A stretch of DNA of 64,000 bases from Halobacteriovorax sp. (GTDB lineage: Bacteria; Bdellovibrionota; Bacteriovoracia; Bacteriovoracales; Bacteriovoracaceae): NCBI GenBank assembly GCA_002720865.1, contig PBIO01000025.1:17-64016 (forward strand). Reading direction: 5' to 3'. Below are positions 35,582 through 63,753 of this stretch, piece after piece (positions within the stretch are counted from its first letter, which is position 1; each line of letters begins with the position of its first letter). The notes beneath the pieces are model-generated. The model was not told where the DNA came from and did not search any database. It was given only the letters and a program-made list of their open reading frames with translations. A program made the position numbers and the translations under genes.

Positions 35582-35614
35582 ATTATACCACATCATCTAG
35601 GTATTTGCACGAAA
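35582..35614 (-). promoter_or_regulatory. TTCGTGCAA-class promoter (P7)
   Basis: TTTCGTGCAAAT, 17-nt spacer, TATAAT (35587-35582). Confidence 0.75.
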
Positions 35615-35620
35615 GAGATC

Positions 35621-35650
35621 AAAAAAAAGAAGGCGACCCGAAGGCCGCCC
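35621..35650 (-). terminator. intrinsic terminator
   Basis: minus strand GGGCGGCCTTCGGGTCGCC hairpin followed by TTCTTTTTTTT. Confidence 0.7.
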
Positions 35651-35697
35651 TCTAAGCTATTAATATTATTACCATATTAGGTTACTAACCGGTCCCG

Positions 35698-35727
35698 TTG
35701 CATACGCGGAATTCACCTGCCTATAAT
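35698..35727 (+). promoter_or_regulatory. possible sigma70-like promoter on + strand
   Basis: TTGCAT, 18-nt spacer, TATAAT; no convincing downstream ORF. Confidence 0.3.
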
Positions 35728-36114
35728 ATATGCGGATACCCCGATCATCACATCGGCAACGAAGGTCTCCTGTCTCGCTTAACCTTAATTCATATTTCTC
35801 ATTTCCTTCAACACGTCCTCCCGGTGAGTCGCCGTTCGGATAGGACAGTAACATCTGATCGGAACGAAGTGATGTTCCCTCTGATCTTATCCTACCTATT
35901 TGAAGTATACCAGCTTATTTTGCGGTGTACATGCAAAAATAATTTTATCTCACTGTCCGAGCAATCCGTTAAGCGCATGGACCACCATCAGGAACACAGC
36001 CAGGCATAGACCTAACCACACCAATAATACTATAGTCGTACCCTTCATGAGCCTACCAGAGCCATTCATCCCATGCGTATAGAAACAGGAACGGGTATAT
36101 GTACCAAAATATGT

Positions 36115-36132
36115 GGAGTGGTTTAACACTCC
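36115..36132 (-). terminator. weak hairpin terminator candidate
   Basis: GGAGTG-GTTTAA-CACTCC stem-loop followed by ACATATTTTGG on the minus strand. Confidence 0.3.
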
Positions 36133-36170
36133 GAGTAGGCGCGCGGGTTAGCACGGATCCCAAGAGCTTT

Positions 36171-36305
36171 TTATTTTTCATCTTCATCTTTGCGCTTGTC
36201 ATCAGGCATGTATGTTACATTTGCCCATATGAATATCCCCCATCCCCCGATTACCAAGATCATTAAGATCAAGTTACCGATTACCTCTATAGTTTCGTAA
36301 CTCAT
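36171..36305 (-). CDS. small membrane protein (44 aa)
   Basis: MSYETIEVIGNLILMILVIGGWGIFIW...; TATAAT only 12 nt upstream and no SD, so possibly a near-leaderless mRNA. Confidence 0.4.
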   Translation of the reverse strand: MSYETIEVIGNLILMILVIGGWGIFIWANVTYMPDDKRKDEDEK

Positions 36306-36421
36306 ATTGCCAATACTATTATACTGCGGTCGCGAGCCGTGTATAAGAGCTGCCCTCACTTTTTATGGGGGCAGTTTCGGTCTCGGTGCTCCCTGATCTG
36401 CAGTGAGCTTTTTTGGTGGAG

Positions 36422-36453
36422 CGCGTGTAAAACAGGGTAGGGTGTGGTATAAT
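36422..36453 (+). promoter_or_regulatory. TTCGTGTAA-class promoter on the + strand (P10)
   Basis: GCGTGTAAAA, 17-nt spacer, TATAAT (36448-36453); the only + strand copy of the class. Confidence 0.65.
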
Positions 36454-36459
36454 AGTACT

Positions 36460-36627
36460 ATATGGTTAAGGAAGCACAGCATATGATTCGCGACGGCCCG
36501 TAGCTCGGTAGCACTCGGACAGCAGCACCGCTGCGCAACAGCCACTCTCGTGGGTGGGTGGGGCAGTTTGTCACTTTTTGGTGTACAGCGGCGCATAGAT
36601 AGATAAGGGCGAGAGCCCTTTTTTTTT
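36460..36627 (+). ncRNA. candidate small RNA (~170 nt) between promoter P10 and a terminator
   Basis: bounded by P10 and the AGGGC-GAGA-GCCCT-T9 terminator; only a 6-codon ORF inside; internal GCAGC/GCTGC and CCGCTG/CAGCGG pairings. Confidence 0.45.
36605..36627 (+). terminator. intrinsic terminator (+ strand)
   Basis: AGGGC GAGA GCCCT followed by nine T. Confidence 0.75.
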
Positions 36628-36849
36628 CGGCCGAGTTCCGGTACACTGCACTCTAGCATGTATTTCCCCTGTCGCTCACCCACGCCGATAGTCTGACGAG
36701 CCAGTAGGGCAATGGACTTTTGGCCACAACTGACAAAGCAAGAGGGCAGAAGTAACAGTAGCTAACCATCTATCAACCCATTATAGATAATTTACATCTT
36801 TCTGTTATACTACTAGCACATATAAGCAGTAGGATACTAATAGGAGGTA

Positions 36850-36963
36850 ATGATGTTGTCTATAGAGACTTTGCTATTATTGCTGATAGGATGTGTGTAC
36901 GTATGTGGTATGGTATCAGGTTACGGGCTATATATGTTATTGACTTATAAGAATGAGGAGTAG
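36850..36963 (+). CDS. small membrane peptide (37 aa)
   Basis: AGGAGG RBS; MMLSIETLLLLLIGCVYVCGMVSGYGLYMLL... Confidence 0.45.
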   Translation: MMLSIETLLLLLIGCVYVCGMVSGYGLYMLLTYKNEE

Positions 36964-37048
36964 GTGACTTACCTGCTTACTCTTCTGTTACTTACACACT
37001 CTTACTGTTTTTTAGTATTACCCGCCACGGAGCCGATAGTCACACGAG

Positions 37049-52636: not shown

Positions 52637-52957
52637 ATGGGACTAATTGATGTATTGGCGCAACTTATTCCGGGCCTTGGTACCAGAGAACGAGAAAGAT
52701 CAAAATTAGCTAAAGAAAATTTAGCACTTTCAGAAAAACTACTGCATGCAGAACAAAAAAATGCCGCCATGCTTCAAAAGTTGTTTCATGGTCGGCAAAC
52801 ACTAGAACAAGAAATTAATGATATGTATAGAATGTATGATGAAGGAGTACTTGATCGAATGCAGGATCCTGTAAAAGGCCTTGTCTGTCTATACACTCAT
52901 ATGGTTTGTTCACATCTTGGTTTCGAAAATCCGATACCTATTGAGTTTGATGCCTGA
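52637..52957 (+). CDS. hypothetical coiled-coil protein
   Basis: AAGGAG RBS before ATG 52637: MGLIDVLAQLIPGLG. Confidence 0.6.
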   Translation: MGLIDVLAQLIPGLGTRERERSKLAKENLALSEKLLHAEQKNAAMLQKLFHGRQTLEQEINDMYRMYDEGVLDRMQDPVKGLVCLYTHMVCSHLGFENPIPIEFDA

Positions 52958-53101
52958 TTCATTTAATAGCTTTGCACGGTATATTGAAAACTGTTGGTAC
53001 GATTGGCCTCCCTGGACTAGTTCAAGCTCTTCATCGCTTAGTTCTGTTACATCTTTAAGATCTTCTTGTGCGGCCTGAGGCTTATTTGTTTTCATCTTCA
53101 T
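52910..53101 (-). CDS. precursor peptide with double-glycine (class II bacteriocin / prochlorosin-type) leader
   Basis: MKMKTNKPQAAQEDLKDVTELSDEELELVQGG followed by a 31-aa core; L-12 S-11 E-8 L-7 V-4 G-2 G-1 all match the GG-leader consensus; weak RBS; 48-nt convergent overlap with the + gene. Confidence 0.55.
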   Translation of the reverse strand: MKMKTNKPQAAQEDLKDVTELSDEELELVQGGQSYQQFSIYRAKLLNESGIKLNRYRIFETKM

Positions 53102-53333
53102 CTTCTTTTTGAGACTTTTTGCTCCACTTATCTTTGGGCATTAATTTTTCAATTCTGAAGCTTAAAGCTTTCATACCATTAACAGTAGGCTGTCCAAGGT
53201 CATCTACACCTATTTCTTTAACTGTTGTTCTTTTATTTTTAAAACGACCGGTAAGAATAATGTCACCCTTTTCTAAATCTAGCTCTAACATTTCCCTTAT
53301 TATCATTCTTAATTGACGCTCAGTAGTCTTCAT
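53082..53333 (-). CDS. KITKRQL-leader family protein (diverged leader)
   Basis: start ATG 53333: MKTTERQLRMIIREML. Confidence 0.6.
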   Translation of the reverse strand: MKTTERQLRMIIREMLELDLEKGDIILTGRFKNKRTTVKEIGVDDLGQPTVNGMKALSFRIEKLMPKDKWSKKSQKEDEDENK

Positions 53334-53856
53334 TGTGGTGCCTAATTGTAAGAGCATGTTCCAATGATTGCTCAAGTTCTTTAGTAATCCCTGTCAGAGC
53401 GTTGTATATTGCACCTAGTACTTTAGGGTCGGGCTCACCATGTGGACCAGCATATCCGAGCTCTGCTACAAGGTCCATTATTTGTTGATATGCATCCTCA
53501 TACGTAGTCTGATCTGCACCATCGTAGCCATATGGCCCTTTTTTGAGCTCTTCTTTGATATTTTTAATACGCCTGGAATATTGCTTAATTGCATTTTCAG
53601 CAGCATAAAGGTACGGGCGGCTATAGTCTTTAGCAGGCATGCCCTCTTTTTCCCTAATACTATCTATATCATTTCGAAGTGAAAGAAGATCTTCTATAGA
53701 GACATTAATATCATCGCTAGCGCCCATGGGACTAAGAAGCTGACCGTTTATAAAAGACACCAGCCTATCTTCACGCGATTCAAGACTTTGAAGGCTTGGC
53801 ATGCCCACCATCGATTCTCTAATAATTTTCCTAAGCTGTCGTTTTGTAATCTTCAT
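53320..53856 (-). CDS. KITKRQL-leader family protein
   Basis: MKITKRQLRKIIRES. Confidence 0.7.
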   Translation of the reverse strand: MKITKRQLRKIIRESMVGMPSLQSLESREDRLVSFINGQLLSPMGASDDINVSIEDLLSLRNDIDSIREKEGMPAKDYSRPYLYAAENAIKQYSRRIKNIKEELKKGPYGYDGADQTTYEDAYQQIMDLVAELGYAGPHGEPDPKVLGAIYNALTGITKELEQSLEHALTIRHHNEDY

Positions 53857-54153
53857 TTACCTGCGGTTCCTTGTTGCCGGTGAAGTATGATGTTCTTCAG
53901 GGGGAATGGTCTTAGACTGCCTAACTTCTCTAGCGACAACCTCTAGAGCATGTGCAATACTCTCAACATATATAGGATTAATCCATACATCTTCGCCGAT
54001 CATATCCTGAGAAAATTCTTCCTCGATGTAGTTCCAAACTCCATTTTGTACGCCACGTGAGATGCCCTCTTCAACATCCGGGCTCATCTCAGAAAGAAGG
54101 CGCGCTTTCTCTTCTTTAATGATTCTTCTTAGTTGTCTCTTTGTGGTTCTCAT
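53857..54153 (-). CDS. KITKRQL-leader family protein
   Basis: MRTTKRQLRRIIKEE. Confidence 0.7.
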   Translation of the reverse strand: MRTTKRQLRRIIKEEKARLLSEMSPDVEEGISRGVQNGVWNYIEEEFSQDMIGEDVWINPIYVESIAHALEVVAREVRQSKTIPPEEHHTSPATRNRR

Positions 54154-54194
54154 AATGTTATTTCCTTAAGTCCCGGTGCATCCCAACTGGGTGG

Positions 54195-54989
54195 TTACCG
54201 GCCTGCTGCCCGGGTGAAAATCTTGATTATCTCTGATAGCGCATGCGCTTCTTCATCATTGGCCGGAGGTTCATAAAAATAATATTCTCCGATCCACCGA
54301 GTTCCGTGTGGGCCTGGAGAAGGGGAGACAGCTTCGGCCATGGCTAAAATAATCTTGAGTACCCCTACCTGGGTCGGCTCCGGCGGATCCTCTGGTAAAT
54401 CTTTACTGAAACTGCCACCATAACCTTCGGTGCTCATAGTATATTCAACGGCTTTAGAGATGTACCCTAGAATTCCACTGGCCCCATGTCGCTCTAAAAC
54501 ATCCTGGTATCGGTTATCCTGAGGGCCTTTGAATGCTTTATGAAGATGAAAATCGAATTGCCTTGCAGTTGCTAGATCTGTCTGATATTGATCCACATCA
54601 GCCTTGCCGCGTCCAGAATCCCACCAGCTCCCCTTGAACCATGCAGGTGTAGATATACTCTTCCTACCCTTCTTCCTGCCCTTCTTCCTGCCCTTCTTCC
54701 GAGGAAGAGTGGCAGCCAAAGTATCTAACCAGCCTGGTTGATTATTGGATATCCAGTCTAATTGTTCATCCCAATCCAGGTCTTGTTCATATCCCGGGAT
54801 TTTTTCCCATAAACCTGCATTAACTAAGTCATCTGCCAAAGCATTAGCGCCGTCGGTCATTGAATGCATATCCGATATTTCATCATACTTTGCATATAAC
54901 CTATCATATGCTGGCCCGCCACCCTCTGAAATGACCCGGGCCACTTCTTCTTTAATGATTCTTCGCAGTTGGCACTTGGTAATTTTCAT
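54195..54989 (-). CDS. KITKRQL-leader family protein
   Basis: MKITKCQLRRIIKEE; internal (KKGR)3. Confidence 0.7.
   Translation of the reverse strand: MKITKCQLRRIIKEEVARVISEGGGPAYDRLYAKYDEISDMHSMTDGANALADDLVNAGLWEKIPGYEQDLDWDEQLDWISNNQPGWLDTLAATLPRKKGRKKGRKKGRKSISTPAWFKGSWWDSGRGKADVDQYQTDLATARQFDFHLHKAFKGPQDNRYQDVLERHGASGILGYISKAVEYTMSTEGYGGSFSKDLPEDPPEPTQVGVLKIILAMAEAVSPSPGPHGTRWIGEYYFYEPPANDEEAHALSEIIKIFTRAAGR
54667..54700. repeat. 12-nt tandem repeat inside a CDS
   Basis: cccttcttcctg x2 plus a partial third copy, encoding KKGRKKGRKKGR on the minus strand. Confidence 0.8.
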
Positions 54990-55390
54990 TATACTTTATC
55001 CCTTTTCGAAAGTACTGATACTCCAATTGCAGAATATATTTCCGGACCTACATGGTGATTAACTTGTTTAAGCTTTATACCCTGCCAATTAATCGGGGGC
55101 TCCAAATAATCAGTCGGAGGAAGTGCTGCACCCTCCGCTTTTAAAGCTTTCCATGCTATGTCCCTATCAGACTTGTCATCAAAAATAACCATGTTTCGAA
55201 TAGAGAACATCGTTTGCCCGCCTTTGCCTCTTTCTGATCGTTGTCCGGATTTTGGAAGGTTATTTAGAGGCTGGCCACCAAAGCGGTCTGCTATAGCAAC
55301 AGTTGCAGACCCTACATCCCATTGATTTTCTGAAAGCATTTCAAGTTCTTCTTTAATGATTCGCCTGAGTTGTCTTTGAGTAATTTTCAT
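54989..55390 (-). CDS. KITKRQL-leader family protein
   Basis: start ATG 55390: MKITQRQLRRIIKEE. Confidence 0.7.
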   Translation of the reverse strand: MKITQRQLRRIIKEELEMLSENQWDVGSATVAIADRFGGQPLNNLPKSGQRSERGKGGQTMFSIRNMVIFDDKSDRDIAWKALKAEGAALPPTDYLEPPINWQGIKLKQVNHHVGPEIYSAIGVSVLSKRDKV

Positions 55391-56373
55391 TTTAAAATCC
55401 CAGCCAACCTTTGCCATTTTTCGATAAGTAGATCATCCCTGGTTTTTCTTGACTCTGTTTTTGTTGCATTTCCAAGAGCATTTCCAAGAGCAGTAAGAAA
55501 CTTAAGTGTGCGTTTCTCATCACCAAGAGATTGTAGATCAACTTGTCCTGCAGTGCCTAGTGATGCTGAAGGATCGTTCAACATCGTTGCTGCCCACCGA
55601 TGATGGCCATCAAGGATCTCTCCGTTCGTACCTGCCCAAGCATCTAGATCACCCCCTGCAATTTGGTTTTTTGGGTTCATTGCCATCCCTAGGGCCTTGT
55701 ATATAAGAATATTTGATTGGGTTGGTATAGCATCGCTTGCAGGAACTGATCCACCCTTAACAACCTTGATATCATCATCATCTTTATTCCCATCATTTTC
55801 TTCATGGCCGGATGTCATAAATTCTTTAGATTCAGCGTCATCCATACCTACAAATGTATTGGGCGCAGGAGGTACATTAAACTTTCCCCTCTTAAGATTT
55901 ACTTTTCTTTCCTTAAGGGCCCTGATGTTTGATACATCATTCTTTTGGACGGCTTCATTGTGTGTGTCAATATTAAACTTGCCTCCAGGCGAAAGAGCAT
56001 CAACTACTTGATCGACTGAACCTTTGGCATCTTCCGGGCCAGGAAGAAACGGCATGACAGACTTAGGTAATCCAGAAGTTGGTATTTTTGATGCCAACGT
56101 TTTGATTCTAGAAGCAACTTCCTCAGGTCCAATTTTTTCTACCCACTCCTTTGCCTGTGCACCGTTAGTAGCGAACCACTGGCCTTGAGTTGATTTAACA
56201 ATTGGGGCATTATCATCTCCGGAAAGTAGCTGATTTACTATTTCGATTGGGTCAACATCTTTAACATTTGTTGACTTATCAACTGCGTCGCCCCGAGGAG
56301 CATCACCAATTTTACCGGTTGATTTCTCCTCTTCTTCAAATAAGATACTTACTAAGCTTGGAATTTTTTTCAT
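55387..56373 (-). CDS. ParB-like nuclease-domain protein (no leader motif)
   Basis: ILDGHHRWAATML, a ParB/Srx-fold DGHHR motif; embedded in the leader-family array. Confidence 0.6.
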   Translation of the reverse strand: MKKIPSLVSILFEEEEKSTGKIGDAPRGDAVDKSTNVKDVDPIEIVNQLLSGDDNAPIVKSTQGQWFATNGAQAKEWVEKIGPEEVASRIKTLASKIPTSGLPKSVMPFLPGPEDAKGSVDQVVDALSPGGKFNIDTHNEAVQKNDVSNIRALKERKVNLKRGKFNVPPAPNTFVGMDDAESKEFMTSGHEENDGNKDDDDIKVVKGGSVPASDAIPTQSNILIYKALGMAMNPKNQIAGGDLDAWAGTNGEILDGHHRWAATMLNDPSASLGTAGQVDLQSLGDEKRTLKFLTALGNALGNATKTESRKTRDDLLIEKWQRLAGILK

Positions 56374-56843
56374 CCTGATGTCCTCATCGGTCCTTCAATT
56401 ATTTCATTTAAAAATGCCACAAAATTCTTAGCACTTTTCTTATCGTGGATGCTAAGTGCTTTTTTATCATCGACATATATTTCCATGGTCAGACCATCCC
56501 ATGTCCACGCAGCCTTAATATTACCAATCCCGATTATGTCCTCTTCCCTAACTGGATCCCGCGGGCCAGATTGTTCTTTTTTCTTTTTGCCCCAAAACTC
56601 AGATAATTTACGAATTTCTTCTTTAATAAGTGCAGAAGGATCATGACGGCGCATACCAGAATCCCACCTAACCGAAATTTGCCTGTCTCTTTTATTTGAT
56701 TTTGCAACAACACGGCCAACACCAAGGTGCGCATCGTCCTTATGGCGAACGATATCACCTACCGTGATGTTAAACGTAGGCCTAGACTCTGAGAATAATT
56801 CTTCTCTAATAATCTTTCTTAGTTGATGCTTGGTAATTTTCAT
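56370..56843 (-). CDS. KITKRQL-leader family protein
   Basis: start ATG 56843: MKITKHQLRKIIREE. Confidence 0.7.
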   Translation of the reverse strand: MKITKHQLRKIIREELFSESRPTFNITVGDIVRHKDDAHLGVGRVVAKSNKRDRQISVRWDSGMRRHDPSALIKEEIRKLSEFWGKKKKEQSGPRDPVREEDIIGIGNIKAAWTWDGLTMEIYVDDKKALSIHDKKSAKNFVAFLNEIIEGPMRTSG

Positions 56844-56844
56844 C

Positions 56845-57189
56845 TTACCATTCTCCGGTGTCATTGCCATCTTCATCTAGCATTACAGCATATTCTTCAA
56901 GCTCTTCATATGTTGTAGCCATAGTAGTAGAAAAACTATTCGGATATTCATCAGATGCAGCAGCTGACATTATATGGCCATACCAATAGCGGAACGCCCT
57001 GGCTTCAATCGACCTATCTGGTACTAGCTTGGTAATCTCGAGCGCTTCTTCTGTTAGTACTTGAATCTCTTGCATGATATCCTTAAATCGATATAGATCA
57101 TTCTCATCTAGGCCCTCAAATTGCTCTTTAAGAATACGAGATTTTTCCTCACGAATTATTCTTCTTAACTGTCGTTTTGTAATTTTCAT
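56845..57189 (-). CDS. KITKRQL-leader family protein
   Basis: MKITKRQLRRIIREE. Confidence 0.7.
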   Translation of the reverse strand: MKITKRQLRRIIREEKSRILKEQFEGLDENDLYRFKDIMQEIQVLTEEALEITKLVPDRSIEARAFRYWYGHIMSAAASDEYPNSFSTTMATTYEELEEYAVMLDEDGNDTGEW

Positions 57190-57491
57190 TATCGTAACCC
57201 AAACTCTATAAGCTCTTCAGCATCATCAATAATCGTGCCAAGATAATCTGACAACTCTGGGAACAGTTCATAAAGAGATTCTTCCACCTCTTCGCGATCG
57301 CCTCCACCCTTAAAGATATTAACAGCTGTATCCCTGGCTTCCATTTCTATGTCCATGATCTTGGGTTCCCAGCCACCCTCAGGTTCTCCATACATGGTAC
57401 CATCATGTGGATTAGCCTCACGATCAATAAAGAAATCTTTCTCAATAGTTTCCTTGATGATTCTTCTTAGTTGCTTTTTTGTAATTTTCAT
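57189..57491 (-). CDS. KITKRQL-leader family protein
   Basis: MKITKKQLRRIIKET. Confidence 0.7.
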   Translation of the reverse strand: MKITKKQLRRIIKETIEKDFFIDREANPHDGTMYGEPEGGWEPKIMDIEMEARDTAVNIFKGGGDREEVEESLYELFPELSDYLGTIIDDAEELIEFGLR

Positions 57492-57492
57492 T

Positions 57493-58281
57493 TTAAAGTT
57501 CCCTGTATATATCTGCTAATGCTTGCTTCAAATACTTTCGGCCATTTTCCCCTAGCTCAGCAAATAATTGCGATAAAATCTCCTTTACAGAATCCTTATT
57601 GTTCGCTGCGTCAATAGCAACTAGAAGAGGTTGTACGCCACTTTTATCTAGTGCAATGTCTGCTTTTTTTCCTGCAGCAGTCTTTGATTCTGCACCGGCA
57701 TCAGCAGAAGCTTCATCTTCAGGATTTTCTTTAAGAATTTCTTCTCTAATAATTTGCCGTAAGCGGCTTTTCGTTATATTCATTGCTTTATTCTCCCATT
57801 GTCTTTGTGCACTTTTTGTTTTTAGACGTTTACCCATTCCAGATCTCTGAGGTACTTTTTCATAGTCTAAATCTAATCCAGGTACCTGTAGGGCTGCTAG
57901 CTCCTGTCGCTCTTTTTCCCACTCTGCTTCACGCTCAGCATTAAATGCATCATCTTCTGCCATAGCTTCAGCTTCACGATCTAAGTCATCAATCGCCGCT
58001 TGAACTTGTGCGACTGTCTCAAACCTTGCCCAACGTGGTCGGATACCATGAAGCGATTTGAATGCGTCTGAGTACGTCTGAGATAAGATCTCAAAGGCTA
58101 ACTCTTCTCCAGTTGTAATACCTCTCTCTTCCCAAAATGACTGATCTGTAACAAGGGTCATACCATATAATCCTGGGCCAGCTTGGGCATTAATTTTCTC
58201 AGCTTCTTCCTGTGCAGTAGGTGCAAAGCCTGACATAGCTTCACGAATTATCTTCTCTAGTTTTTTGCGACTAATTCTCAT
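57493..58281 (-). CDS. KITKRQL-leader family protein with two leader copies
   Basis: MRISRKKLEKIIREA at the N-terminus and an internal MNITKSRLRQIIREE. Confidence 0.7.
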   Translation of the reverse strand: MRISRKKLEKIIREAMSGFAPTAQEEAEKINAQAGPGLYGMTLVTDQSFWEERGITTGEELAFEILSQTYSDAFKSLHGIRPRWARFETVAQVQAAIDDLDREAEAMAEDDAFNAEREAEWEKERQELAALQVPGLDLDYEKVPQRSGMGKRLKTKSAQRQWENKAMNITKSRLRQIIREEILKENPEDEASADAGAESKTAAGKKADIALDKSGVQPLLVAIDAANNKDSVKEILSQLFAELGENGRKYLKQALADIYREL

Positions 58282-58290
58282 GTTATCATC

Positions 58291-59667
58291 CTAATCATAA
58301 TATGGCATCATCGGTGGACCCTGGGGCGGCCGGCGGCCCAAGGTTTTTCCTGCTCTTCTGTTCAGGAAGTCTAAAAATTTTGGAACATCAATCTGATCTT
58401 TTGGAACAGCCACCTCACCAACACCATGTGATATACTATCTGGTGCGGAAAGCCTTATATACCTCTTATACTCTTTCCATCCTAGGGTCTTTAAATCCTC
58501 AGGGGTGACCGTGGATGTAAAATGGTTTGCCAATAGTTCTAGCCATTCTTTATCTGGGTCAGATGTTATAGCACTACTTTGTCGAGCTTTTTCTATTTTC
58601 CACGCTTCATTTTCTATTGCATCAGTGTCACGACGTGTCACACCATTGCTGTACAATAGATCTGCTAGTTCACTATCATCTAAAAATACTGGTAAATCAG
58701 ACCACCCAAATATTGGCAATAATATCTCTGCAGCCTCCTTATATTTTTTTGCTTTGGCAAGTGGAACTACGACAGCTGCAATTTCATCATCACTATTCTT
58801 TGCAGTAAGGGTTTCATTAATGATCCCTGCTATCTTTAAAATCCTATTATATGAAGCGGCAATCGTTTCTTTAGCAGGATCTTCACCTGATATCCATTCT
58901 CCATATTTCTTAATATATTTTGAGACTCCGTTGCTAATTCCTGTGTATACTGTATCAGCAACAATATCCTTGAATATCTGTTTACTAGGCCGGCTATTAC
59001 CATACCCAAAACTATAAGAGCTCTTATTTTCATCTGGCAACGAGCTATATAAATCCGCAACTTCCTTACTGTCAGCCCACTCGGTATAGCCTGATGCGAT
59101 ATCTGCTGAGGCATCTTGCCCGTATTGAAGCACATAATCTCCGGGGCTATCCCATTGTTGGTAGCTGCTTCCATCTTGCCACATCTTAGGATTATTATAG
59201 GCATCATGCATAGTATCCATGGCCCAATCTTCTCCGCCGGCTTCAGCATCATTCAATATTTTTTCTTTGAGAGCTTCATATTTTTCTTCAGCTTCTTCTT
59301 CCTGGCGCTTTTCTTCAGCTTCAGCTTCATCTTCCCTGGCAAAATGCGCATCCCAGTCGTAGTCGGGATCTGACTCATCTGTAATCGGGCCTTTTTCTTC
59401 AGGCTCTATATACCACTGACTGTCTGGGTACCACTCTTGCTCTTCCATGGATTCACCAGCTGGAATCATCATTTCAAATGATTCCGGATCTTCAACATCT
59501 GTCTCTACCTGATCACCTGGTTCGAGCTCATCCAAGAACATCTCCATATCAGCAGTCGTTTGAAATTCTGGAACAGTATATCCTGCATCATACTCTTTAA
59601 GAAGTCTTTTTGCACGGATCACTTCTTCCTTGATGATTCTTTTCAGTTGTCGTTTTGTGATTTTCAT
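58291..59667 (-). CDS. KITKRQL-leader family protein (largest, 458 aa)
   Basis: start ATG 59667: MKITKRQLKRIIKEE; acidic body. Confidence 0.7.
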   Translation of the reverse strand: MKITKRQLKRIIKEEVIRAKRLLKEYDAGYTVPEFQTTADMEMFLDELEPGDQVETDVEDPESFEMMIPAGESMEEQEWYPDSQWYIEPEEKGPITDESDPDYDWDAHFAREDEAEAEEKRQEEEAEEKYEALKEKILNDAEAGGEDWAMDTMHDAYNNPKMWQDGSSYQQWDSPGDYVLQYGQDASADIASGYTEWADSKEVADLYSSLPDENKSSYSFGYGNSRPSKQIFKDIVADTVYTGISNGVSKYIKKYGEWISGEDPAKETIAASYNRILKIAGIINETLTAKNSDDEIAAVVVPLAKAKKYKEAAEILLPIFGWSDLPVFLDDSELADLLYSNGVTRRDTDAIENEAWKIEKARQSSAITSDPDKEWLELLANHFTSTVTPEDLKTLGWKEYKRYIRLSAPDSISHGVGEVAVPKDQIDVPKFLDFLNRRAGKTLGRRPPQGPPMMPYYD

Positions 59668-59965
59668 TATATTCCTCTTCCGGTATGCTACTTTCGACGT
59701 CATCAGCCAAGCCACGGAGGTCGGCAGCTAACTCATGCCATTCCGACGGATTCGTTTGATCCATTGCTTGATTTATTATGTCAGCAAGGGTATGCCATAG
59801 TGGTTGATCATAAGAGCGGCCTTTAATCTTAACGCTTGAAAGGCTTCCTCGTTGAGCATCCATCTTTGCTGCTGCGATCCCCATATCAGCAGGAGTCATT
59901 TCATTTATTAGCTTAGAATGTTCTTCTTTAATGATTCTTTTTAATTGTCGTTTTGTGATTTTCAT
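59597..59965 (-). CDS. KITKRQL-leader family protein
   Basis: MKITKRQLKRIIKEE; its 3' end reads 71 nt into the next member's leader in another frame. Confidence 0.65.
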   Translation of the reverse strand: MKITKRQLKRIIKEEHSKLINEMTPADMGIAAAKMDAQRGSLSSVKIKGRSYDQPLWHTLADIINQAMDQTNPSEWHELAADLRGLADDVESSIPEEEYNENHKTTTEKNHQGRSDPCKKTS

Positions 59966-60720
59966 TAGTCTAACCTTACGTCAATAATATCTGGCACCAT
60001 ACGCTTAAGTTCTCGTAAACCAGCTGGATACATACTTCCAGGCATCTCAACTACTATGTCGATTGCCGTACCGTTATCACCTAGTTCCATTACAACACCT
60101 GACATTTCGTCACCAGGTTGTATTCCGCCATATTCATCTTCATAATCTTCCCATGCATCGAAGCCCATATAGAATGTACCACTGCTTGGGCTGTAGCCAA
60201 GATAAGACTCCTGCCCTTCGCTATATCCGGATCGTTGAAGATACTGCCAGGCCTCACCAACACCGGGGCCCTCATAAAATACCTGATATACGTTTACTCC
60301 ATCAACCATTACACCTTCAGGCCAGGCGGCACTAACTTGTTCTTCGGTAACATCTGGATCCGTAAGTTCGGCCGTGATACCACTCATATTACTTTCAGAA
60401 AGCCCTTCTTCTGATTCTGCAGCTGCCTTAAGGGCAGCTTTAGCTCTTGCGCGCCGGGTTTCAGAAGCTTTTCGGGCCCGATAATCCGCGGGGGACTCAT
60501 CACCATACGGATTTTCTCGGCCGTAATAGTCAGCCTGTCTCTCGTTCCGGGTCCGTTGCGCTTTACGTGCACGATAGTCTGCTGGAGACTCGTCACCATA
60601 TTCGTTGTCAGGGCCATGGAGTCGATCGTTTAATCTTCTTTGAGCCTCAGGTGAACGTTCAACAAGTCTTGAGATCTCTTCTTTGATTATTCTTCTTAGT
60701 TGTTTTTGTGTAATTTTCAT
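59965..60720 (-). CDS. KITKRQL-leader family protein
   Basis: start ATG 60720: MKITQKQLRRIIKEE; internal duplicated YGDESPADYRARKA. Confidence 0.7.
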   Translation of the reverse strand: MKITQKQLRRIIKEEISRLVERSPEAQRRLNDRLHGPDNEYGDESPADYRARKAQRTRNERQADYYGRENPYGDESPADYRARKASETRRARAKAALKAAAESEEGLSESNMSGITAELTDPDVTEEQVSAAWPEGVMVDGVNVYQVFYEGPGVGEAWQYLQRSGYSEGQESYLGYSPSSGTFYMGFDAWEDYEDEYGGIQPGDEMSGVVMELGDNGTAIDIVVEMPGSMYPAGLRELKRMVPDIIDVRLD

Positions 60721-61163
60721 TCTTTCTGCATCCACTCGTCCCCCCAATCGAGGTCGTCCATCCATGAGTCATCGCCGGCGTCTTCGTCGTCTTCGTCGTC
60801 ATCAAAGGTCCCAAGAGCCAATAGGCTATCCCTTAGGTCAGCTGGAGCAGACCCATCATCTATAGCCCAATTAATCTCATCCTCTACATCGGTGGGATCA
60901 GGGCTGCCATCATCAGTCATTTGATCAATACGTTGAGATAGAGGGTGATCTGGGCCCAATACATCCCTTATGTCTTCCCACATATAGTCAACAGTGTCAG
61001 TCCGGCTCTCATACTGTTCCCAATGTGCATCGGCAGCCAGAAAATAAGGGTGCCTCTTCGGCTTCTTCTTCTTTTTGTTTTTCTTTTTCTTTTTCTCAAT
61101 TAGAATATTTCTAGAAATTTCTTCCTTGATGATTCTTTTGAGTTGGCTCTTTGTGATTTTCAT
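60717..61163 (-). CDS. KITKRQL-leader family protein
   Basis: MKITKSQLKRIIKEE followed by a poly-Lys tract. Confidence 0.7.
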   Translation of the reverse strand: MKITKSQLKRIIKEEISRNILIEKKKKKNKKKKKPKRHPYFLAADAHWEQYESRTDTVDYMWEDIRDVLGPDHPLSQRIDQMTDDGSPDPTDVEDEINWAIDDGSAPADLRDSLLALGTFDDDEDDEDAGDDSWMDDLDWGDEWMQKE

Positions 61164-61441
61164 AGTCTTATCCCCAGGTTCCGAGCGATTCTTTCAAGCA
61201 TTCCCTCAAGTTCCTCCGAAGCATCCATTAAATCATAGTCATCGGTACCATATGCTTCTTGCAGTTTATCAGCAAACTCAAACATTGCATTTAAAAAGCC
61301 CTTTGTCCCATCATGTAATCTCCAGTAATCCTCACCTGATACTGCCATGGACTCATTTTGAAGTGAGGCTCTCTCTTTTTTACGGTCGCTTGATATTTCT
61401 TCCTTGATGATTCTTTTCAGTTGTCGTTTTGTGATTTTCAT
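61160..61441 (-). CDS. KITKRQL-leader family protein
   Basis: MKITKRQLKRIIKEE; its first 45 nt are identical to the member starting at 59667. Confidence 0.7.
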   Translation of the reverse strand: MKITKRQLKRIIKEEISSDRKKERASLQNESMAVSGEDYWRLHDGTKGFLNAMFEFADKLQEAYGTDDYDLMDASEELEGMLERIARNLGIRL

Positions 61442-61442
61442 T

Positions 61443-61679
61443 TTAAAATCCTCCTGCCCTAATTGTATCTGCTATATCGCGATCTGGTATGCCCATTGCT
61501 CGACAGCGCTCAATGCATGCTGTGAGATCGTCTAACGCCTCGAGTTGATCTAGGCTTCGATTTACATATAACTCTTCATCGACGTCATTGTATTGTTCAC
61601 CATAACGAGGGGCCTCTTTTAGCAATTTAAGCTTCTCTTCCTTAATGATCCGTTTAAGCTGTCTCTTGGTTATTCTCAT
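61443..61679 (-). CDS. KITKRQL-leader family protein
   Basis: start ATG 61679: MRITKRQLKRIIKEE; a longer ORF from 61745 would add a hydrophobic extension. Confidence 0.6.
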   Translation of the reverse strand: MRITKRQLKRIIKEEKLKLLKEAPRYGEQYNDVDEELYVNRSLDQLEALDDLTACIERCRAMGIPDRDIADTIRAGGF

Positions 61680-61818
61680 TCTAACATTGCCCTTTACAGC
61701 TAGTGCAACCGCAACAACCGCAACAGCAACAACAATGACTGTCATTAAATAAATTTGCTAATCTGTGTAATACCTTTTTCATTTTTAATCTCCTTTTATT
61801 GTTGATTGGTAACCTTCA

Positions 61819-62196
61819 TTATACCGGGGTTCCTTCAATTAACCATGTAAATAGATGCCATGGCTCACTTTCATTCCAGTATTCAGAATATCGATCAGCC
61901 CAATCTTCAAAAGCATCAGTAAAATCTTTATTAAGCGCTGCCTTATCTGGTGCGATTGTGCCAGATTCCAGGCCTGATATTACGTCGGTAAATTGGGATA
62001 GATCTCTCTTCATATCATCATACCATGTGGTTGACTTATCTTGTGGATTGATCTGTTCAAACCCATACATCTGATTAACAGTTTCGTGCCAGGTATCAGG
62101 CTCGCGAGGGCCCTGATATGGGTCGTCGACACTATCAAACCACGGGTCAAGTTCTTCTTTGATGATCTGCTTAAGCCGGCTTTTTGTAATCTTCAC
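61819..62196 (-). CDS. KITKRQL-leader family protein
   Basis: GTG 62196 with GGAGGG RBS: (M)KITKSRLKQIIKEE. Confidence 0.65.
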   Translation of the reverse strand: MKITKSRLKQIIKEELDPWFDSVDDPYQGPREPDTWHETVNQMYGFEQINPQDKSTTWYDDMKRDLSQFTDVISGLESGTIAPDKAALNKDFTDAFEDWADRYSEYWNESEPWHLFTWLIEGTPV

Positions 62197-62197
62197 T

Positions 62198-62554
62198 TTA
62201 ATATCCCTCCGGGCGGGCCCATGCAATTATTTCGTCATCCGACATATCTTGTGCCATTACACTCGATGCCTTTGCTGCGGCTACAAATTTCCTTGAGTCT
62301 CTTTTTGCAAGAGAACCTGGTGAGATCGAAATATCCATCTCAGCAAAGTCTCTAAACCCTAATTCATATGCCATATGATCCAGGTCAAGTATTCCGATAT
62401 CCAATGCCTCAGAAAACTCGTACCAATTGGAATCCTTTGGGGGATAGCCATTCACCGGTGATGGTGGGCCGTGCGTACCAGTTCGATACTCATTAACAAT
62501 ATGGGATACTTCTTCCTTGATGATCCGCTTAAGCTGTCTTTTGGTTATTCTCAT
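62198..62554 (-). CDS. KITKRQL-leader family protein
   Basis: start ATG 62554: MRITKRQLKRIIKEE. Confidence 0.7.
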   Translation of the reverse strand: MRITKRQLKRIIKEEVSHIVNEYRTGTHGPPSPVNGYPPKDSNWYEFSEALDIGILDLDHMAYELGFRDFAEMDISISPGSLAKRDSRKFVAAAKASSVMAQDMSDDEIIAWARPEGY

Positions 62555-62555
62555 T

Positions 62556-62975
62556 TTACCATGCTCCTGGTGTACCTTGAGGAAAACTGTATGCCTTACC
62601 ATACTCATCTTGTTCATCGAGGATCATAATAATATCCTCAAATGATCGGAGACCAGGAAGAGTATGATCGTATGCAGGTAAATTAAACAGATTATGGCTT
62701 CGGGCCCAGCGTACAAACTCTGACATATCTGTAGGTTGTGGACTTAATTCATATTCAGGTGTACCATAATTCGGATGTAAAGAAATTGTATAATCATCAA
62801 CCACCTTGCCGGTGTCATCATATACGGTTACAGATGCCGCATCTTCACTCATGCCTCGATAGTTGAGGATGTCATATTCACTGTGCGCGCCGGCTGGAAT
62901 GTTTGACGATTCGTGAAGGAGGCGGGATACTTCTTCTTTAATGAGCCGCTTAAGCTGTCTTTTGGTTATTCTCAC
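62556..62975 (-). CDS. KITKRQL-leader family protein
   Basis: GTG start with GGAGACAACAC RBS: (M)RITKRQLKRLIKEE. Confidence 0.7.
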   Translation of the reverse strand: MRITKRQLKRLIKEEVSRLLHESSNIPAGAHSEYDILNYRGMSEDAASVTVYDDTGKVVDDYTISLHPNYGTPEYELSPQPTDMSEFVRWARSHNLFNLPAYDHTLPGLRSFEDIIMILDEQDEYGKAYSFPQGTPGAW

Positions 62976-62986
62976 CGTGTTGTCTC

Positions 62987-63310
62987 CTATCGATACATAT
63001 CGGGGTTTGATAATACGTCTTCTAACTCAGCAATCTTATCATCGATTGACATCATACCAAACTCAGAATCATTGACTGTAGTAGCACCCATTGCTCTTTC
63101 TGCTTCAAGCGCCTCGATTTGATCTGCCTCGAATCCCGGGGCAGAAAGTATCTTTCGGTCACCTATGATTACACCATCAAATGCTGTACCTGAACTATAA
63201 GTTACATTAACGACATTCTCACGCAGCTTACGCCGGACCTTGGCCTCAGCAATCAGCTTAGCCTTCTCTTCTTTGATTATTCGTTTAAGCTGTCTCTTGG
63301 TTATTCTCAT
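62987..63310 (-). CDS. KITKRQL-leader family protein
   Basis: MRITKRQLKRIIKEEKAKLIAEAKVRR; a recent duplicate of the next member. Confidence 0.7.
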   Translation of the reverse strand: MRITKRQLKRIIKEEKAKLIAEAKVRRKLRENVVNVTYSSGTAFDGVIIGDRKILSAPGFEADQIEALEAERAMGATTVNDSEFGMMSIDDKIAELEDVLSNPDMYR

Positions 63311-63327
63311 CGTGTTGTCTCCTATGA

Positions 63328-63753
63328 CTATTGTATTCTATATACCGCATCTAAAGTTGAGTTGTCAACGTCAACCCAGTCACCACCATCCCACATCATA
63401 TATGCATCTGGGCCGGCGCTATATGGCGAGTTCATATCATCCCACCAGTGAACCAGCGTGCCATTAACAATAAAGAATTCAGATTCTGATAATAGTTGAT
63501 TCTGCGTTGGAACTTCAGTTTCGAAGTCCCCAGGGGAATGATCTGCACCTAATAGCCAATTCAAAAGATTTTTCTCTAACATCATCATGGCATCTGGGAA
63601 CATAGATCTAGCATCTTCTAACGTTACCTGTCTATTGCCCGGGGCATTCTCACATAATTTACGCCTGACCAATCGTCGGACCTTGGTCTCAGCAACCAGC
63701 TTGGCTTTTTCTTCTTTGATGATCCGCTTAAGCTGTCTCTTGGTTATTCTCAC
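63328..63753 (-). CDS. KITKRQL-leader family protein
   Basis: (M)RITKRQLKRIIKEEKAKLVAETKVRR. Confidence 0.7.
   Translation of the reverse strand: MRITKRQLKRIIKEEKAKLVAETKVRRLVRRKLCENAPGNRQVTLEDARSMFPDAMMMLEKNLLNWLLGADHSPGDFETEVPTQNQLLSESEFFIVNGTLVHWWDDMNSPYSAGPDAYMMWDGGDWVDVDNSTLDAVYRIQ

What the first reader, a model, noticed from the sequence alone, without database searches (positions are those of the whole stretch)
53082..63753. About 21 tandem genes share a 15-residue N-terminal leader (M-K/R-I-T-K-R-Q-L-K/R-R-I-I-K-E-E) fused to unrelated protein bodies
Seen: when starts are chosen by RBS and overlap logic, 20 of 21 consecutive minus-strand genes begin with this leader. The exception is a ParB-like nuclease-domain gene at 55387..56373. 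One protein (57493..58281) also has an internal copy.

The bodies are 80-460 aa, mostly acidic, and not alignable to each other by eye. Only the recent duplicates 62987..63310 and 63328..63753 are alike. The first 45 nt are identical at 59667 and 61441, while 59965 differs only at synonymous sites. That pattern suggests selection on the peptide plus some gene conversion.

Inference: a constant leader on variable cargo suggests a targeting or pro-peptide. It contains I-K-E, which fits the (L/I)-x-E cleavage rule of T4-type prohead proteases. It also sits where the capsid-targeting sequence of T4 internal proteins sits. The locus could therefore be a greatly expanded, polymorphic set of packaged or injected effectors. 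Alternatives are an import tag for a tubulin-organised compartment, or a recombination handle for cassette shuffling.
Basis: partly seen in the sequence, partly recalled or inferred. Interest (0 to 1): 0.88.

Follow-up and report, generated by a model that had tools for sequence, protein, structure and literature searches.

The report
Shared N-terminal leader on phage proteins
An uncultured marine giant phage carries 20 back-to-back genes whose unrelated proteins all start with the same 15-residue tag; thousands of other ocean phage proteins carry this undescribed tag, which most likely loads proteins into the phage head before a protease removes it.

Summary
Twenty of 21 consecutive minus-strand genes (53082..63753) start with M-[KR]-I-T-K-R-Q-L-[KR]-R-I-I-K-E-E, and one gene has an internal copy. 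A degenerate DNA pattern matches 18 times against 0.00 expected.

Selection acts on the peptide, because synonymous sites vary freely. Conservation stops after residue 15, and the bodies are unrelated.

The locus is not unique. The leader marks 8,919 protein clusters, nearly all from marine metagenomes. It forms arrays of up to 28 genes on uncultured phage contigs. It is essentially absent from cellular genomes and cultured phages, and has no Pfam, NCBIfam or PHROG family.

In T4-like marine contigs, leader genes sit directly beside the T4-type prohead protease gene (17% of flanking genes versus 4% elsewhere). L8, I12 and E14 are almost invariant, and I12-x-E14 fits the T4 protease (L/I)-x-E rule. 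The window phage shares several genes at about 50% identity with these T4-like phages.

My best reading (about 0.5) is a capsid-targeting propeptide analogous to the T4 CTS, here greatly expanded.

I found no protease, portal or capsid gene in the 82 kb of this genome I could read. There is no proteomic evidence. The ParB call is unverified.

The parts
63328..63753 (-). Leader gene 1 (GTG start, 141 aa): MRITKRQLKRIIKEEKAKLVAE...; first gene of the array
62987..63310 (-). Leader gene 2 (107 aa). It shares only the first 34 aa and the upstream 25 nt with gene 1.
62556..62975 (-). Leader gene 3 (GTG start, 139 aa)
62198..62554 (-). Leader gene 4 (118 aa). The body has a 50%-identical homologue in L030.
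61819..62196 (-). Leader gene 5 (GTG start, 125 aa): VKITKSRLKQIIKEE
61443..61679 (-). Leader gene 6 (78 aa)
61160..61441 (-). Leader gene 7 (93 aa). Its 45-nt leader is identical to that of gene 11, while the flanks are unrelated.
60717..61163 (-). Leader gene 8 (148 aa); ATGA overlap with the next gene
59965..60720 (-). Leader gene 9 (251 aa). In other phages its body family occurs as the C-terminal module of fused proteins.
59597..59965 (-). Leader gene 10 (122 aa here, 97 aa in other samples). A TAA-to-GAA change in the window removes the stop codon.
58291..59667 (-). Leader gene 11 (458 aa, very acidic). The body has 46-55%-identical homologues in L013, L030 and L138.
57493..58281 (-). 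Leader gene 12 (262 aa): divergent N-terminal leader MRISRKKLEKIIREA, a conserved core domain, an internal leader, then a variable C-terminal module
57739..57783 (-). Internal leader copy (MNITKSRLRQIIREE) inside gene 12. It is predicted as an isolated helix between low-confidence linkers.
57189..57491 (-). Leader gene 13 (100 aa)
56845..57189 (-). Leader gene 14 (114 aa)
56370..56843 (-). Leader gene 15 (157 aa, basic, pI 9.8)
55387..56373 (-). The one gene in the array without the leader (328 aa; N-terminus MKKIPSLVSILFEEEE). It contains a DGHHRW motif, but no ParB or other family hit.
54989..55390 (-). Leader gene 16 (133 aa, basic, pI 9.5)
54195..54989 (-). Leader gene 17 (264 aa)
53857..54153 (-). 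Leader gene 18 (98 aa): MRTTKRQLRRIIKEEK. The body is 70% identical to a gene in L014.
53320..53856 (-). Leader gene 19 (178 aa)
53082..53333 (-). Leader gene 20, the last of the array (83 aa, basic): divergent leader MKTTERQLRMIIREM. Its body is the most conserved of the array, at 77-85% identity in five related phage contigs.

Best explanation
The 15-residue leader is a portable N-terminal targeting propeptide of a large group of uncultured marine phages of the T4 superfamily. It works like the T4 capsid-targeting sequence.

The proposed mechanism has four steps:
1. The leader folds as a short, strongly basic amphipathic helix on a flexible linker.
2. The helix docks the attached protein onto the scaffolding core while the prohead assembles.
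3. The T4-type prohead protease (Peptidase_S77) then cuts after I12-x-E14, and perhaps again at a weaker L-x-E site near residue 22.
4. This releases the mature cargo inside the head.

On this reading the window's array is a single tightly packed operon. It encodes about 20 different head-internal proteins, either core components or proteins ejected with the DNA. It was built by repeatedly fusing the tag to new bodies and by swapping cassettes at the tag.

Shown: the array, selection on the peptide, the modularity of the tag, its restriction to phages and its abundance, and its adjacency to the protease gene in T4-like relatives.

Inferred: docking, cleavage, packaging, and the presence of the protease in this particular genome.
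For: 1. The array is real and far beyond chance: 18 pattern matches against 0.00 expected.

2. Selection acts on the peptide.
- Amino-acid identity is 73% over codons 2-15.
- Among codon pairs that encode the same residue, 52% use different codons.
- L8 uses five codons.
- The next 15 codons are 10% identical, and the upstream 30 nt are 32% identical.

3. The tag is a separate module.
- Information content collapses after position 15 in 358 copies.
- 354 bodies fall into 214 BLAST clusters, 171 of them singletons.
- One body family occurs both with and without the leader.
- AlphaFold places both leader copies of 57493..58281 as isolated helices (residues 5-16 and 171-185). The internal copy lies between low-confidence linkers and the N-terminal copy is followed by a short non-helical segment; both stand apart from a confident core with pLDDT above 89.

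4. The most conserved residues are L8 (99%), I12 (96%) and E14 (97%). [LIVM]-x-E at positions 12-14 occurs in 347 of 358 copies. From my own knowledge, T4 gp21 cleaves after (L/I)-x-E; the papers I read describe gp21 removing 10-20-residue N-terminal propeptides (PMC5694885).

5. The context in relatives is a T4-type head module.
- Leader-bearing contigs L019, L025, L029, L036, L044, L046 and L047 carry a gp17-like terminase, Portal_T4, Peptidase_S77 and Gp23.
- The leader gene L047:10001-10345 ends 2 nt before the protease gene.
- L036 has six leader genes around its protease.
- In 80 independent loci selected only by the protease, 12 of 74 genes right after it and 14 of 79 right before it carry the leader. 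Among all other genes the figure is 37 of 925.
- The catalytic His and Ser motifs of the protease are conserved.

6. The window phage shares genes with these T4-like phages.
- The tubulin-like gene is 51-63% identical to homologues in those loci.
- PrkA, SpoVR and DUF444 are 49-56% identical to genes next to a Gp23 gene in L118.
- A syntenic pair of fibre genes is 27-31% identical to genes about 2.5 kb after the protease.

7. The tag is specific to phages.
- It marks 8,919 cluster representatives.
- Only 6 loci were found among 185,579 genomes. All are MAG contigs, and at least the 305.8-kb one looks like mis-binned phage.

8. There is precedent.
- T-even internal proteins are diverse and share only a conserved CTS (PMC3012670).
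- The giant phage SPN3US has a 20-member family of head paralogues, and two diverged head proteins with identical 15-residue N-termini (PMC5694885).

9. Proteins with 2-4 in-frame leader copies are common. They would be harmless if each copy is a cleavage site.
Against: - No Peptidase_S77, Gp20 or Gp23 gene lies in the 82 kb of this phage that I could read (window -12.3 kb to +69.7 kb). The scaffold is at least 177 kb.
- The leader has no sequence similarity to the T4 CTS, MKTYQEFIAE as I recall it. The T4 prohead proteins I translated show no similarity beyond a short IKEEK match in gp67. The leader carries a net charge of about +5.
- The bodies are mostly acidic (median pI 4.7). As I recall, T4 internal proteins are basic.
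- In the window the array lies within a long run of small co-directional genes, not in a head module. No late-promoter signal could be recognised.
- Enrichment beside the protease is only about four-fold. A cruder ORF-based test gave an odds ratio of 2.1 (p = 0.012).
- Every locus in that sample lies within 10 kb of a protease by construction.
- No cultured phage carries the leader, so no virion proteome exists to consult.
Confidence: 0.5

Rival explanations
1. The leader is a docking tag for a partner other than the prohead core. The partner could be a phage machine, such as the tubulin-like filament or the GroEL-like chaperonin encoded in the same window. It could also be a conserved host machine, such as a protease, a chaperone or RNA polymerase. 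All tagged proteins would then be localised, folded, timed or degraded in the same way in the infected cytoplasm.
For: - The tag is modular, under peptide-level selection and specific to phages. This fits any specific protein-protein recognition.
- In L029 and L040 the tubulin-like gene is immediately followed by leader genes, and in L069/L070 it lies about 1 kb upstream of them.
- In the window the array sits among small early-looking genes and far from any head gene.
- The bodies are acidic, as is common for small early anti-host phage proteins (my own knowledge).
Against: - It does not explain why the leader is enriched on the genes directly flanking the prohead protease.
- It does not explain why I12-x-E14, the protease P3/P1 pattern, is among the most conserved features.
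- The tubulin gene also lies inside head modules in loci where no leader gene was detected, L068 and L106. The adjacency may therefore be plain synteny.
- No partner is identified.
Confidence: 0.2
2. The leader has an intrinsic biochemical function. As a basic amphipathic helix it would bind the anionic membrane or nucleic acid, giving every tagged protein the same location. Alternatively the released basic peptide itself acts as a DNA counter-ion.
For: - The sequence has six K/R residues in 14, and I3, L8, I11 and I12 fall on one face of a helix (sequence itself).
- It is predicted to be helical and detached from the body.
- From my own knowledge, N-terminal or C-terminal amphipathic helices target MreB, MinD and FtsA to membranes, and T4 heads retain small internal peptides derived from core proteins.
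Against: - Generic membrane-binding or nucleic-acid-binding helices tolerate much sequence variation. Here T4, Q7, L8, I12 and E14 are 85-99% conserved across thousands of otherwise unrelated proteins. That points to specific recognition.
- An invariant acidic residue (E14) is not expected in a membrane or DNA anchor.
- The sharp boundary after residue 15 and the enrichment beside the protease remain unexplained.
Confidence: 0.12
3. The conserved 5' segment is kept mainly as a recombination handle. It would be a short homology block that lets co-infecting phages shuffle gene cassettes. The peptide would be a by-product.
For: - Leaders 59667 and 61441 are 45/45 nt identical while their flanks are unrelated.
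- In the family of 57493..58281 the module after the internal leader differs between homologues.
- Several arrays sit at contig ends, as repeats that break assemblies do.
- Gene fusions at leaders are frequent.
Against: - Across the 20 copies, 52% of same-residue codon pairs use different codons, and mean nucleotide identity is only 71%. L8 uses five codons.
- The constraint is therefore on the amino acids. Most pairs share too little exact DNA identity for efficient homologous recombination.
- Recombination at the tag looks like a consequence of its conservation, not the reason for it.
Confidence: 0.05
4. The conserved start is a translation-initiation or mRNA-level element, such as an A-rich, unstructured 5' coding region or a binding site for a regulator.
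For: - The first codons are A-rich (AAA ATT ACA AAA).
- The genes are translationally coupled, with purine-rich Shine-Dalgarno-like sites at -10 to -14.
Against: - Synonymous sites vary freely, so the conservation is at the protein level.
- The upstream 30 nt are not conserved (32% identity).
- Internal in-frame copies exist far from any start codon.
- Fifteen constrained residues are far more than any known initiation-enhancing effect requires.
Confidence: 0.03

Closest known systems
T4 capsid-targeting sequence (CTS) on internal proteins IPI, IPII, IPIII and Alt
   Same: - Both are short N-terminal leaders shared by otherwise unrelated, rapidly diversifying proteins.
- T4-type CTS propeptides are 10-20 residues long; this leader is 15 (PMC5694885).
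- Both end in a hydrophobic-x-Glu motif of the kind cut by the gp21-type protease.
- In T4 the leader is sufficient to load foreign proteins into the head and is then removed. T-even internal proteins are described as diverse, sharing only the CTS (PMC3012670; PMC5694885).
- In relatives, the genes lie next to a Peptidase_S77 gene.
   Different: - There is no sequence similarity to the T4 CTS (MKTYQEFIAE as I recall it) or to the T4 prohead proteins translated.
- This leader is strongly basic and helical.
- The bodies are mostly acidic, not basic.
- The scale is far larger: 20-28 genes per array and 8,919 clusters, against three to a handful of genes.
- The array in the window is not near a head module.
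- Packaging and cleavage are untested.
T4 prohead core proteins gp67, gp68 and gp22
   Same: - The position matches. In T4 the genes between portal (gp20) and capsid (gp23) are 67, 68, 21 and 22.
- In marine T4-like contigs the genes directly before and after the protease often carry the leader.
- Many leader proteins are small and acidic.
- gp67 contains ...IDLIKEEKIAI..., which resembles ...RIIKEEKAKL....
   Different: - No homology is detectable beyond that short stretch.
- The scaffold-like protein upstream of the capsid gene in these contigs starts MSSMLEQAIIDA and does not carry the leader.
- Most leader genes lie outside the portal-to-capsid interval.
Head paralogue families and propeptides of giant phages (SPN3US, phiKZ)
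   Same: - These are giant phages with runs of about 20 related head-protein genes (SPN3US paralogue family B, which includes gps 138-154).
- SPN3US gp53 and gp54 have identical 15-residue N-termini on diverged bodies.
- Cleavage is by a gp21-related protease after x-x-Glu (PMC5694885).
   Different: - There the bodies are paralogous; here they are unrelated.
- The cleavage motif there is A/S/G-x-E and the propeptides often exceed 100 residues.
- No sequence relationship was detected.
Polymorphic toxins and effectors with a constant N-terminal trafficking module, and encapsulin cargo-loading peptides (my own knowledge)
   Same: The logic is the same: a constant delivery or loading tag joined to variable cargo, diversified by cassette exchange at the junction.
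   Different: - Those tags are whole domains (Rhs, MuF, CdiA) or C-terminal peptides (encapsulins).
- They belong to different machineries.
- No homology was tested or expected.

Membership tests
T4-type CTS-bearing head-internal proteins | A short conserved N-terminal leader shared by otherwise unrelated proteins of one phage | tested here: met
   20 of 21 genes carry it. Conservation ends after residue 15, and the bodies do not cluster.
T4-type CTS-bearing head-internal proteins | The leader ends in a (L/I)-x-E site for the gp21-type protease | tested here: met
   I12-x-E14 is invariant in the window. [LIVM]-x-E is present in 347 of 358 copies. This shows only that the motif is present, not that it is cleaved.
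T4-type CTS-bearing head-internal proteins | A Peptidase_S77 (gp21) prohead protease is encoded by the same genome | tested here: inconclusive
   None was found in the 82 kb read, out of at least 177 kb. The protease is present next to leader genes in T4-like relatives. Those relatives share several genes with the window phage at about 50% identity.
T4-type CTS-bearing head-internal proteins | Sequence similarity to the T4 CTS (MKTYQEFIAE, from my own knowledge) or to T4 IP, gp67 or gp68 proteins | tested here: not met
   No Pfam, PHROG or NCBIfam hit. Only a five-residue IKEEK resemblance to gp67.
T4-type CTS-bearing head-internal proteins | The protein is packaged into proheads and its leader is removed in mature virions | not testable with these tools
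   This needs virion mass spectrometry or a packaging assay. No cultured phage carries the leader.
Giant-phage head paralogue families (SPN3US / phiKZ type) | Members are paralogous over their bodies | tested here: not met
   All-against-all BLASTP of the bodies: 171 singletons in 214 clusters. The window genes do not match one another.
Giant-phage head paralogue families (SPN3US / phiKZ type) | A/S/G-x-E cleavage motif | tested here: not met
   The conserved motif is I-[KR]-E. The motif definition comes from PMC5694885.
ParB/Srx-like nuclease domain (claimed for 55387..56373) | Match to the ParB N-terminal domain profile or fold | tested here: not met
   Sequence tests were negative and the fold could not be assessed. 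No Pfam hit even at E <= 5. No NCBIfam hit. No PDB sequence hit. The single-sequence model is unusable, with pLDDT 40. Only a DGHHRW motif is visible.
Sec or Tat signal peptides | A hydrophobic core of 10 or more residues after a basic N-region (plus RRxFLK for Tat) | tested here: not met
   The sequence itself shows no hydrophobic core. K, R or E occurs every 2-4 residues.
Import signal of nucleus-forming (chimallivirus-type) phages | A genome encoding the nuclear-shell protein and split RNA polymerases, with cargo recognised for import | not tested
   Only a tubulin-like gene is present. Its homologues lie in T4-like head modules. The shell protein and RNA polymerases were not searched for.

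The most novel reading that the evidence does not exclude
A single 15-residue peptide serves as a universal, portable capsid-loading and cleavage tag across a vast clade of uncultured ocean phages. These include T4-like phages of about 170-200 kb and jumbo relatives of 300 kb. The tag would let each phage load dozens of unrelated proteins, about 9,000 distinct families in all, into its head for co-injection with the DNA. That would be the largest natural arsenal of injected phage effectors yet seen, and a ready-made protein-packaging tag. Frequent multi-leader polyproteins would be cut into separate cargoes.
Probability: 0.35. Interest if true: 0.88.

Novelty: new variant of a known kind. Interest (0 to 1): 0.77.

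Why it matters
If the leader is a head-targeting propeptide, one short motif would assign a location (inside the virion) and a maturation step to about 9,000 protein families. Those families are currently pure "viral dark matter" in ocean metagenomes.

It would also show that abundant marine phages carry far larger sets of packaged, probably injected, proteins than any model phage. That would give a direct route to finding new anti-defence and host-takeover proteins.

It would provide a natural 15-residue tag for loading foreign proteins into capsids.

The hypothesis is directly testable. Existing viral-fraction metaproteomes can be searched for N-termini that start right after ...IIKE. Even if the target is not the capsid, a tag this conserved on such diverse cargo implies an undescribed sorting or recognition system in phage-infected cells.

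Tried and rejected
1. Nearest relatives among cultured phages.
- Megablast of the array, tblastn of the tubulin-like protein and tblastn of a typical leader protein against 50,697 phage records found nothing.
- The helicase and PrkA genes match only distant jumbo and Thermus phages at about 30% identity.

2. Protein family libraries.
- Pfam, PHROGs and NCBIfam have no family for any leader protein.
- Two weak PHROG N-terminal hits (phrog_25554, phrog_134) were not significant.

3. Literature.
- No paper contains the motif strings.
- The Far-T4 genomics paper does not mention such a family.
- A jumbo/PrkA search found nothing relevant.

4. Finding the prohead protease in this genome.
- I walked out with exact-protein look-ups to window -12.3 kb and +69.7 kb.
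- One side holds giant fibre-like genes and then a glycosyltransferase cluster. The other holds Fe-S and NifU-like genes. No head genes turned up.
- A protease-profile scan of IMG/VR returned only the 80 loci closest to the query protease (L047); none of them lay on the window-like array contigs already in hand.

5. Candidate head genes on contig L006, which carries four leader genes. PHROGs and PDB sequence searches found nothing.

6. Expression signals.
- Sigma-70-like promoters and terminators are not enriched in the array.
- The T4 late-promoter motif is uninformative even upstream of capsid genes in these phages.

7. Structures of the bodies.
- The 57493..58281 core is confidently modelled but has no fold match in the PDB.
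- The 328-aa protein could not be modelled from a single sequence.

8. The mRNA-element and pure recombination-handle explanations were rejected because of the synonymous-site variation.

Full report
**1. The observation**

The ORF list, a six-frame motif scan and inspection of start sites show 21 consecutive minus-strand genes between 63753 and 53082. Twenty begin with M-[KR]-I-T-K-R-Q-L-[KR]-R-I-I-K-E-E. Three of these use GTG starts.

The exception is 55387..56373. One gene, 57493..58281, has a second in-frame copy at residues 167-181. A degenerate 36-nt pattern for the leader matches 18 times, all on the minus strand inside the array. One hundred shuffles gave 0.00 matches.

The genes are packed with gaps of -14 to +41 nt, plus one gap of 139 nt and one 71-nt overlap. 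Most have a purine-rich ribosome-binding site 10-14 nt upstream. Promoter-like and terminator-like sites are not enriched. This looks like one translationally coupled operon.

- Gene 59965.. starts at 60720.
- The "duplicates" at 62987 and 63328 are alike only over their first 34 residues.
- The ParB label of the leaderless gene has no support.

**2. What is conserved**

Among the 20 window copies, codons 2-15 are 73% identical at the amino-acid level. Among codon pairs that encode the same residue, 52% use different codons. The invariant L8 is written with five codons.

The next 15 codons are 10% identical, and the 30 nt upstream are 32% identical. The constraint is therefore on the peptide, not on DNA or RNA.

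One pair (59667 and 61441) is 45/45 nt identical with unrelated flanks. That indicates occasional recombination or conversion confined to the leader.

**3. What the window is**

The exact proteins occur on Tara Oceans metagenome contigs, the longest being 176,782 bp. The window also encodes:
- a tmRNA;
- a tubulin/FtsZ-like protein, a PIN-PhoH protein, a PrkA-DUF444-SpoVR operon and a DinG-like helicase;
- a thymidylate synthase and a GroEL-like protein;
- long runs of tiny co-directional genes.

Its few cultured relatives are jumbo phages at about 30% identity. It is an uncultured marine giant phage. NCBI holds an identical protein under a "Halobacteriovorax sp." MAG name, which is probably a binning error.

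**4. The leader is a very large, undescribed, phage-specific family**

- A profile of the window leaders finds more than 1,300 proteins in the word-indexed search. These hits are short, and the 20 I read have many different bodies.
- It finds 8,919 cluster representatives at E <= 0.001 among 1.84 billion.
- In IMG/VR it retrieved 41 loci with 220 strict copies, all at ORF N-termini and all on one strand. Arrays reach 28, 21, 19 and 17 genes.
- In 185,579 species-representative genomes only six loci appear. All are MAG contigs. One 305.8-kb "Methylococcaceae" contig has at least 28 leader genes and window-like genes, so it is a mis-binned phage.
- There is no Pfam, NCBIfam or PHROG family and no hit in cultured phages. 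I found no paper.

**5. The leader is a detachable module**

- Over 358 copies the information content falls from about 3-4 bits per position (positions 1-15) to below 1 bit within three positions, from position 17 on.
- After removal of the leader, 354 bodies form 214 BLAST clusters, of which 171 are singletons.
- In the one well-populated body family (57493..58281, 50 homologues) some members start directly with the conserved core and have no leader. In many members an internal leader follows the core, and after it the C-terminal module differs between homologues.
- AlphaFold2 with that alignment models both leader copies as isolated helices. The N-terminal copy is followed by a short non-helical segment, and the internal copy lies between low-confidence linkers. 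Both stand apart from a confident core. The core has no PDB fold match.
- Proteins with 2-4 leader copies are common. The residues before internal copies (for example ...EGKM) look like translated ribosome-binding sites. These proteins therefore probably arose by fusion of neighbouring genes.

**6. Context in relatives**

Seven of the leader-selected loci carry a T4-type head module:
- a gp17-like terminase, 45% identical to that of Flavobacterium phage immuto;
- Portal_T4, Peptidase_S77 and Gp23.

The catalytic His and Ser motifs of the protease are conserved. The leader gene L047:10001-10345 ends 2 nt before the protease gene. L025 has two leader genes just upstream of its protease. L036 has six around it.

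I then drew an independent sample of 80 loci chosen only by the protease. In that sample:
- All 59 leader hits lie on the protease strand.
- They fall in three places: 6.5-10 kb upstream (before the terminase), 0-1.5 kb upstream, and 0.5-1.5 kb downstream.
- The gene immediately after the protease carries the leader in 12 of 74 loci, and the gene immediately before it in 14 of 79. Among other genes the figure is 37 of 925.
- A cruder ORF-based test gave an odds ratio of 2.1, p = 0.012.

The usual occupant of the position after the protease is a protein of about 140 aa starting MKKSELKKLIKPLVKECI. It looks like a diverged leader by eye and scores weakly positive.

The T4 gene order 20-67-68-21-22-23 places prohead core proteins in exactly these positions.

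**7. Link between the window phage and the T4-like phages**

- The window's tubulin-like protein has 51-63% identical homologues inside or beside those head modules.
- Its DUF444, SpoVR and PrkA genes have 49-56% identical homologues next to a Gp23 gene in L118.
- Two giant fibre-like genes just beyond the window start have syntenic homologues (27-31% identity) about 2.5 kb after the protease in several loci.

The phage is therefore related to the T4-like ("Far-T4") marine lineage. However, I found no protease, portal or capsid gene in the 82 kb of it that I could read.

**8. Interpretation**

According to the papers I read, all T4 head-internal proteins reach the scaffolding core through a 10-20-residue N-terminal CTS, which gp21 then removes. 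T-even internal proteins are highly diverse and share only the CTS. The giant phage SPN3US has a 20-member family of head paralogues and identical 15-residue N-termini on two diverged head proteins (PMC3012670; PMC5694885).

The present leader has the same logic and a similar length. It ends in I-x-E, with I12 and E14 among its most conserved residues, and it sits beside the S77 protease gene in relatives. I therefore favour a CTS-like targeting and cleavage propeptide, with confidence about 0.5.

Points against:
- The protease has not been shown in this genome.
- There is no sequence similarity to T4 leaders.
- The leader is basic and the bodies are acidic (median pI 4.7).
- The array is located away from any head genes.
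- There are no proteomic data.

Rival explanations:
- A docking tag for another phage or host partner (0.2).
- An intrinsic membrane-binding or nucleic-acid-binding helix (0.12).
- A recombination handle (0.05, more likely a side effect).
- An mRNA or translation element (0.03, contradicted).

**9. Novelty and verdict**

The concept has a clear precedent in T4. But this leader is unrelated in sequence, undescribed in the libraries and literature I could search, and vastly more expanded. I class it as a new variant of a known kind, with interest 0.77.

The decisive tests are a protease search of the complete genomes and a search of viral-fraction metaproteomes for N-termini that begin right after ...IIKE.

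Noticed in passing
window 4143-4505 (-): A complete tmRNA gene (Rfam 117 bits; tag peptide ANNNDNFEYALAA) lies inside what is otherwise a phage contig, next to the tubulin-like gene.
   Followed up: no
window 2917-4128 (-); homologues at L068:16605-17678, L106:6522-7571, L029:6297-7448, L040:1486-2628: A tubulin/FtsZ-like gene (GGGGGTGSA signature; weak Pfam Tubulin hit) has 51-63% identical homologues in T4-like marine phage contigs. These lie inside or beside the head module, and in L029 and L040 immediately upstream of leader genes.
   Followed up: partly
window 8068-12546 (-); L118:13566-16485: A PrkA / SpoVR / DUF444 (yeaG-yeaH-ycgB-like) operon is carried by the phage. A 49-56% identical copy sits next to the Gp23 capsid gene of a T4-like contig.
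   Followed up: partly
window 52910-53101 (-): A 63-aa ORF directly downstream of the array has a double-glycine-type leader (…ELSDEELELVQGG), as in class II bacteriocin or lanthipeptide precursors.
   Followed up: no
window 59672-59674 versus L001:9994-9996: A single base difference (GAA in the window, TAA in other samples) removes the stop codon of gene 59597..59965. The gene is extended by 25 codons across the leader of the next gene, in another frame.
   Followed up: partly
L054-L133, genes flanking the S77 protease (for example L073:9524, L079:5977, L114:5983, L108:9264, L097:7391): Other conserved N-terminal motifs sit on proteins of very different length at the same positions. MSxWSSFExDK...W[RK]xFLxE follows the protease, on proteins of 188-715 aa. 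MARRKNxKRIDPRYFLNETVNR precedes it. These may be further leader classes.
   Followed up: no
L047:11376-11591, L099:9148-9387, L117:8647-8883, L133:13705-13926: A small, very basic gene that resembles ribosomal protein bS21 by eye lies inside the head module of these T4-like marine phage contigs.
   Followed up: no
L141:14982-24773 (beyond the window start, about -2.6 to -12.3 kb): After three giant fibre-like genes (941, 905 and 1590 aa) comes a cluster of glycosyltransferases, methyltransferases and sugar epimerases. This suggests phage-encoded glycan synthesis or modification.
   Followed up: no
L135/L137 (NHDW01000006.1, 305,838 bp); protein P0279: Phage contigs with leader arrays are filed in public MAGs as 'Methylococcaceae bacterium TMED69', 'Candidatus Peribacter', 'Verrucomicrobiales' and 'Gemmatimonadetes'. 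The window's own protein is named as from 'Halobacteriovorax sp.'. These are probably binning errors.
   Followed up: partly
window about 27000-37000: G+C rises to 0.45-0.51, against 0.33-0.44 elsewhere. The stretch holds a MoxR-like AAA_5 ATPase, a DUF2201 metallopeptidase/VWA protein and a RecA-like ATPase that are shared with related jumbo contigs.
   Followed up: no
P0130, P0137, P0163, P0188 and the window gene 57493..58281: Many predicted proteins carry 2-4 in-frame leader copies, each followed by a different module, like polyproteins. Internal copies often keep the Met and a translated ribosome-binding-site remnant (…EGKM…).
   Followed up: partly
L013, L018, L022, L034, L048 (locus ranges): Leader arrays often lie at the very ends of long contigs. 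The repeated leader may break metagenome assemblies.
   Followed up: no
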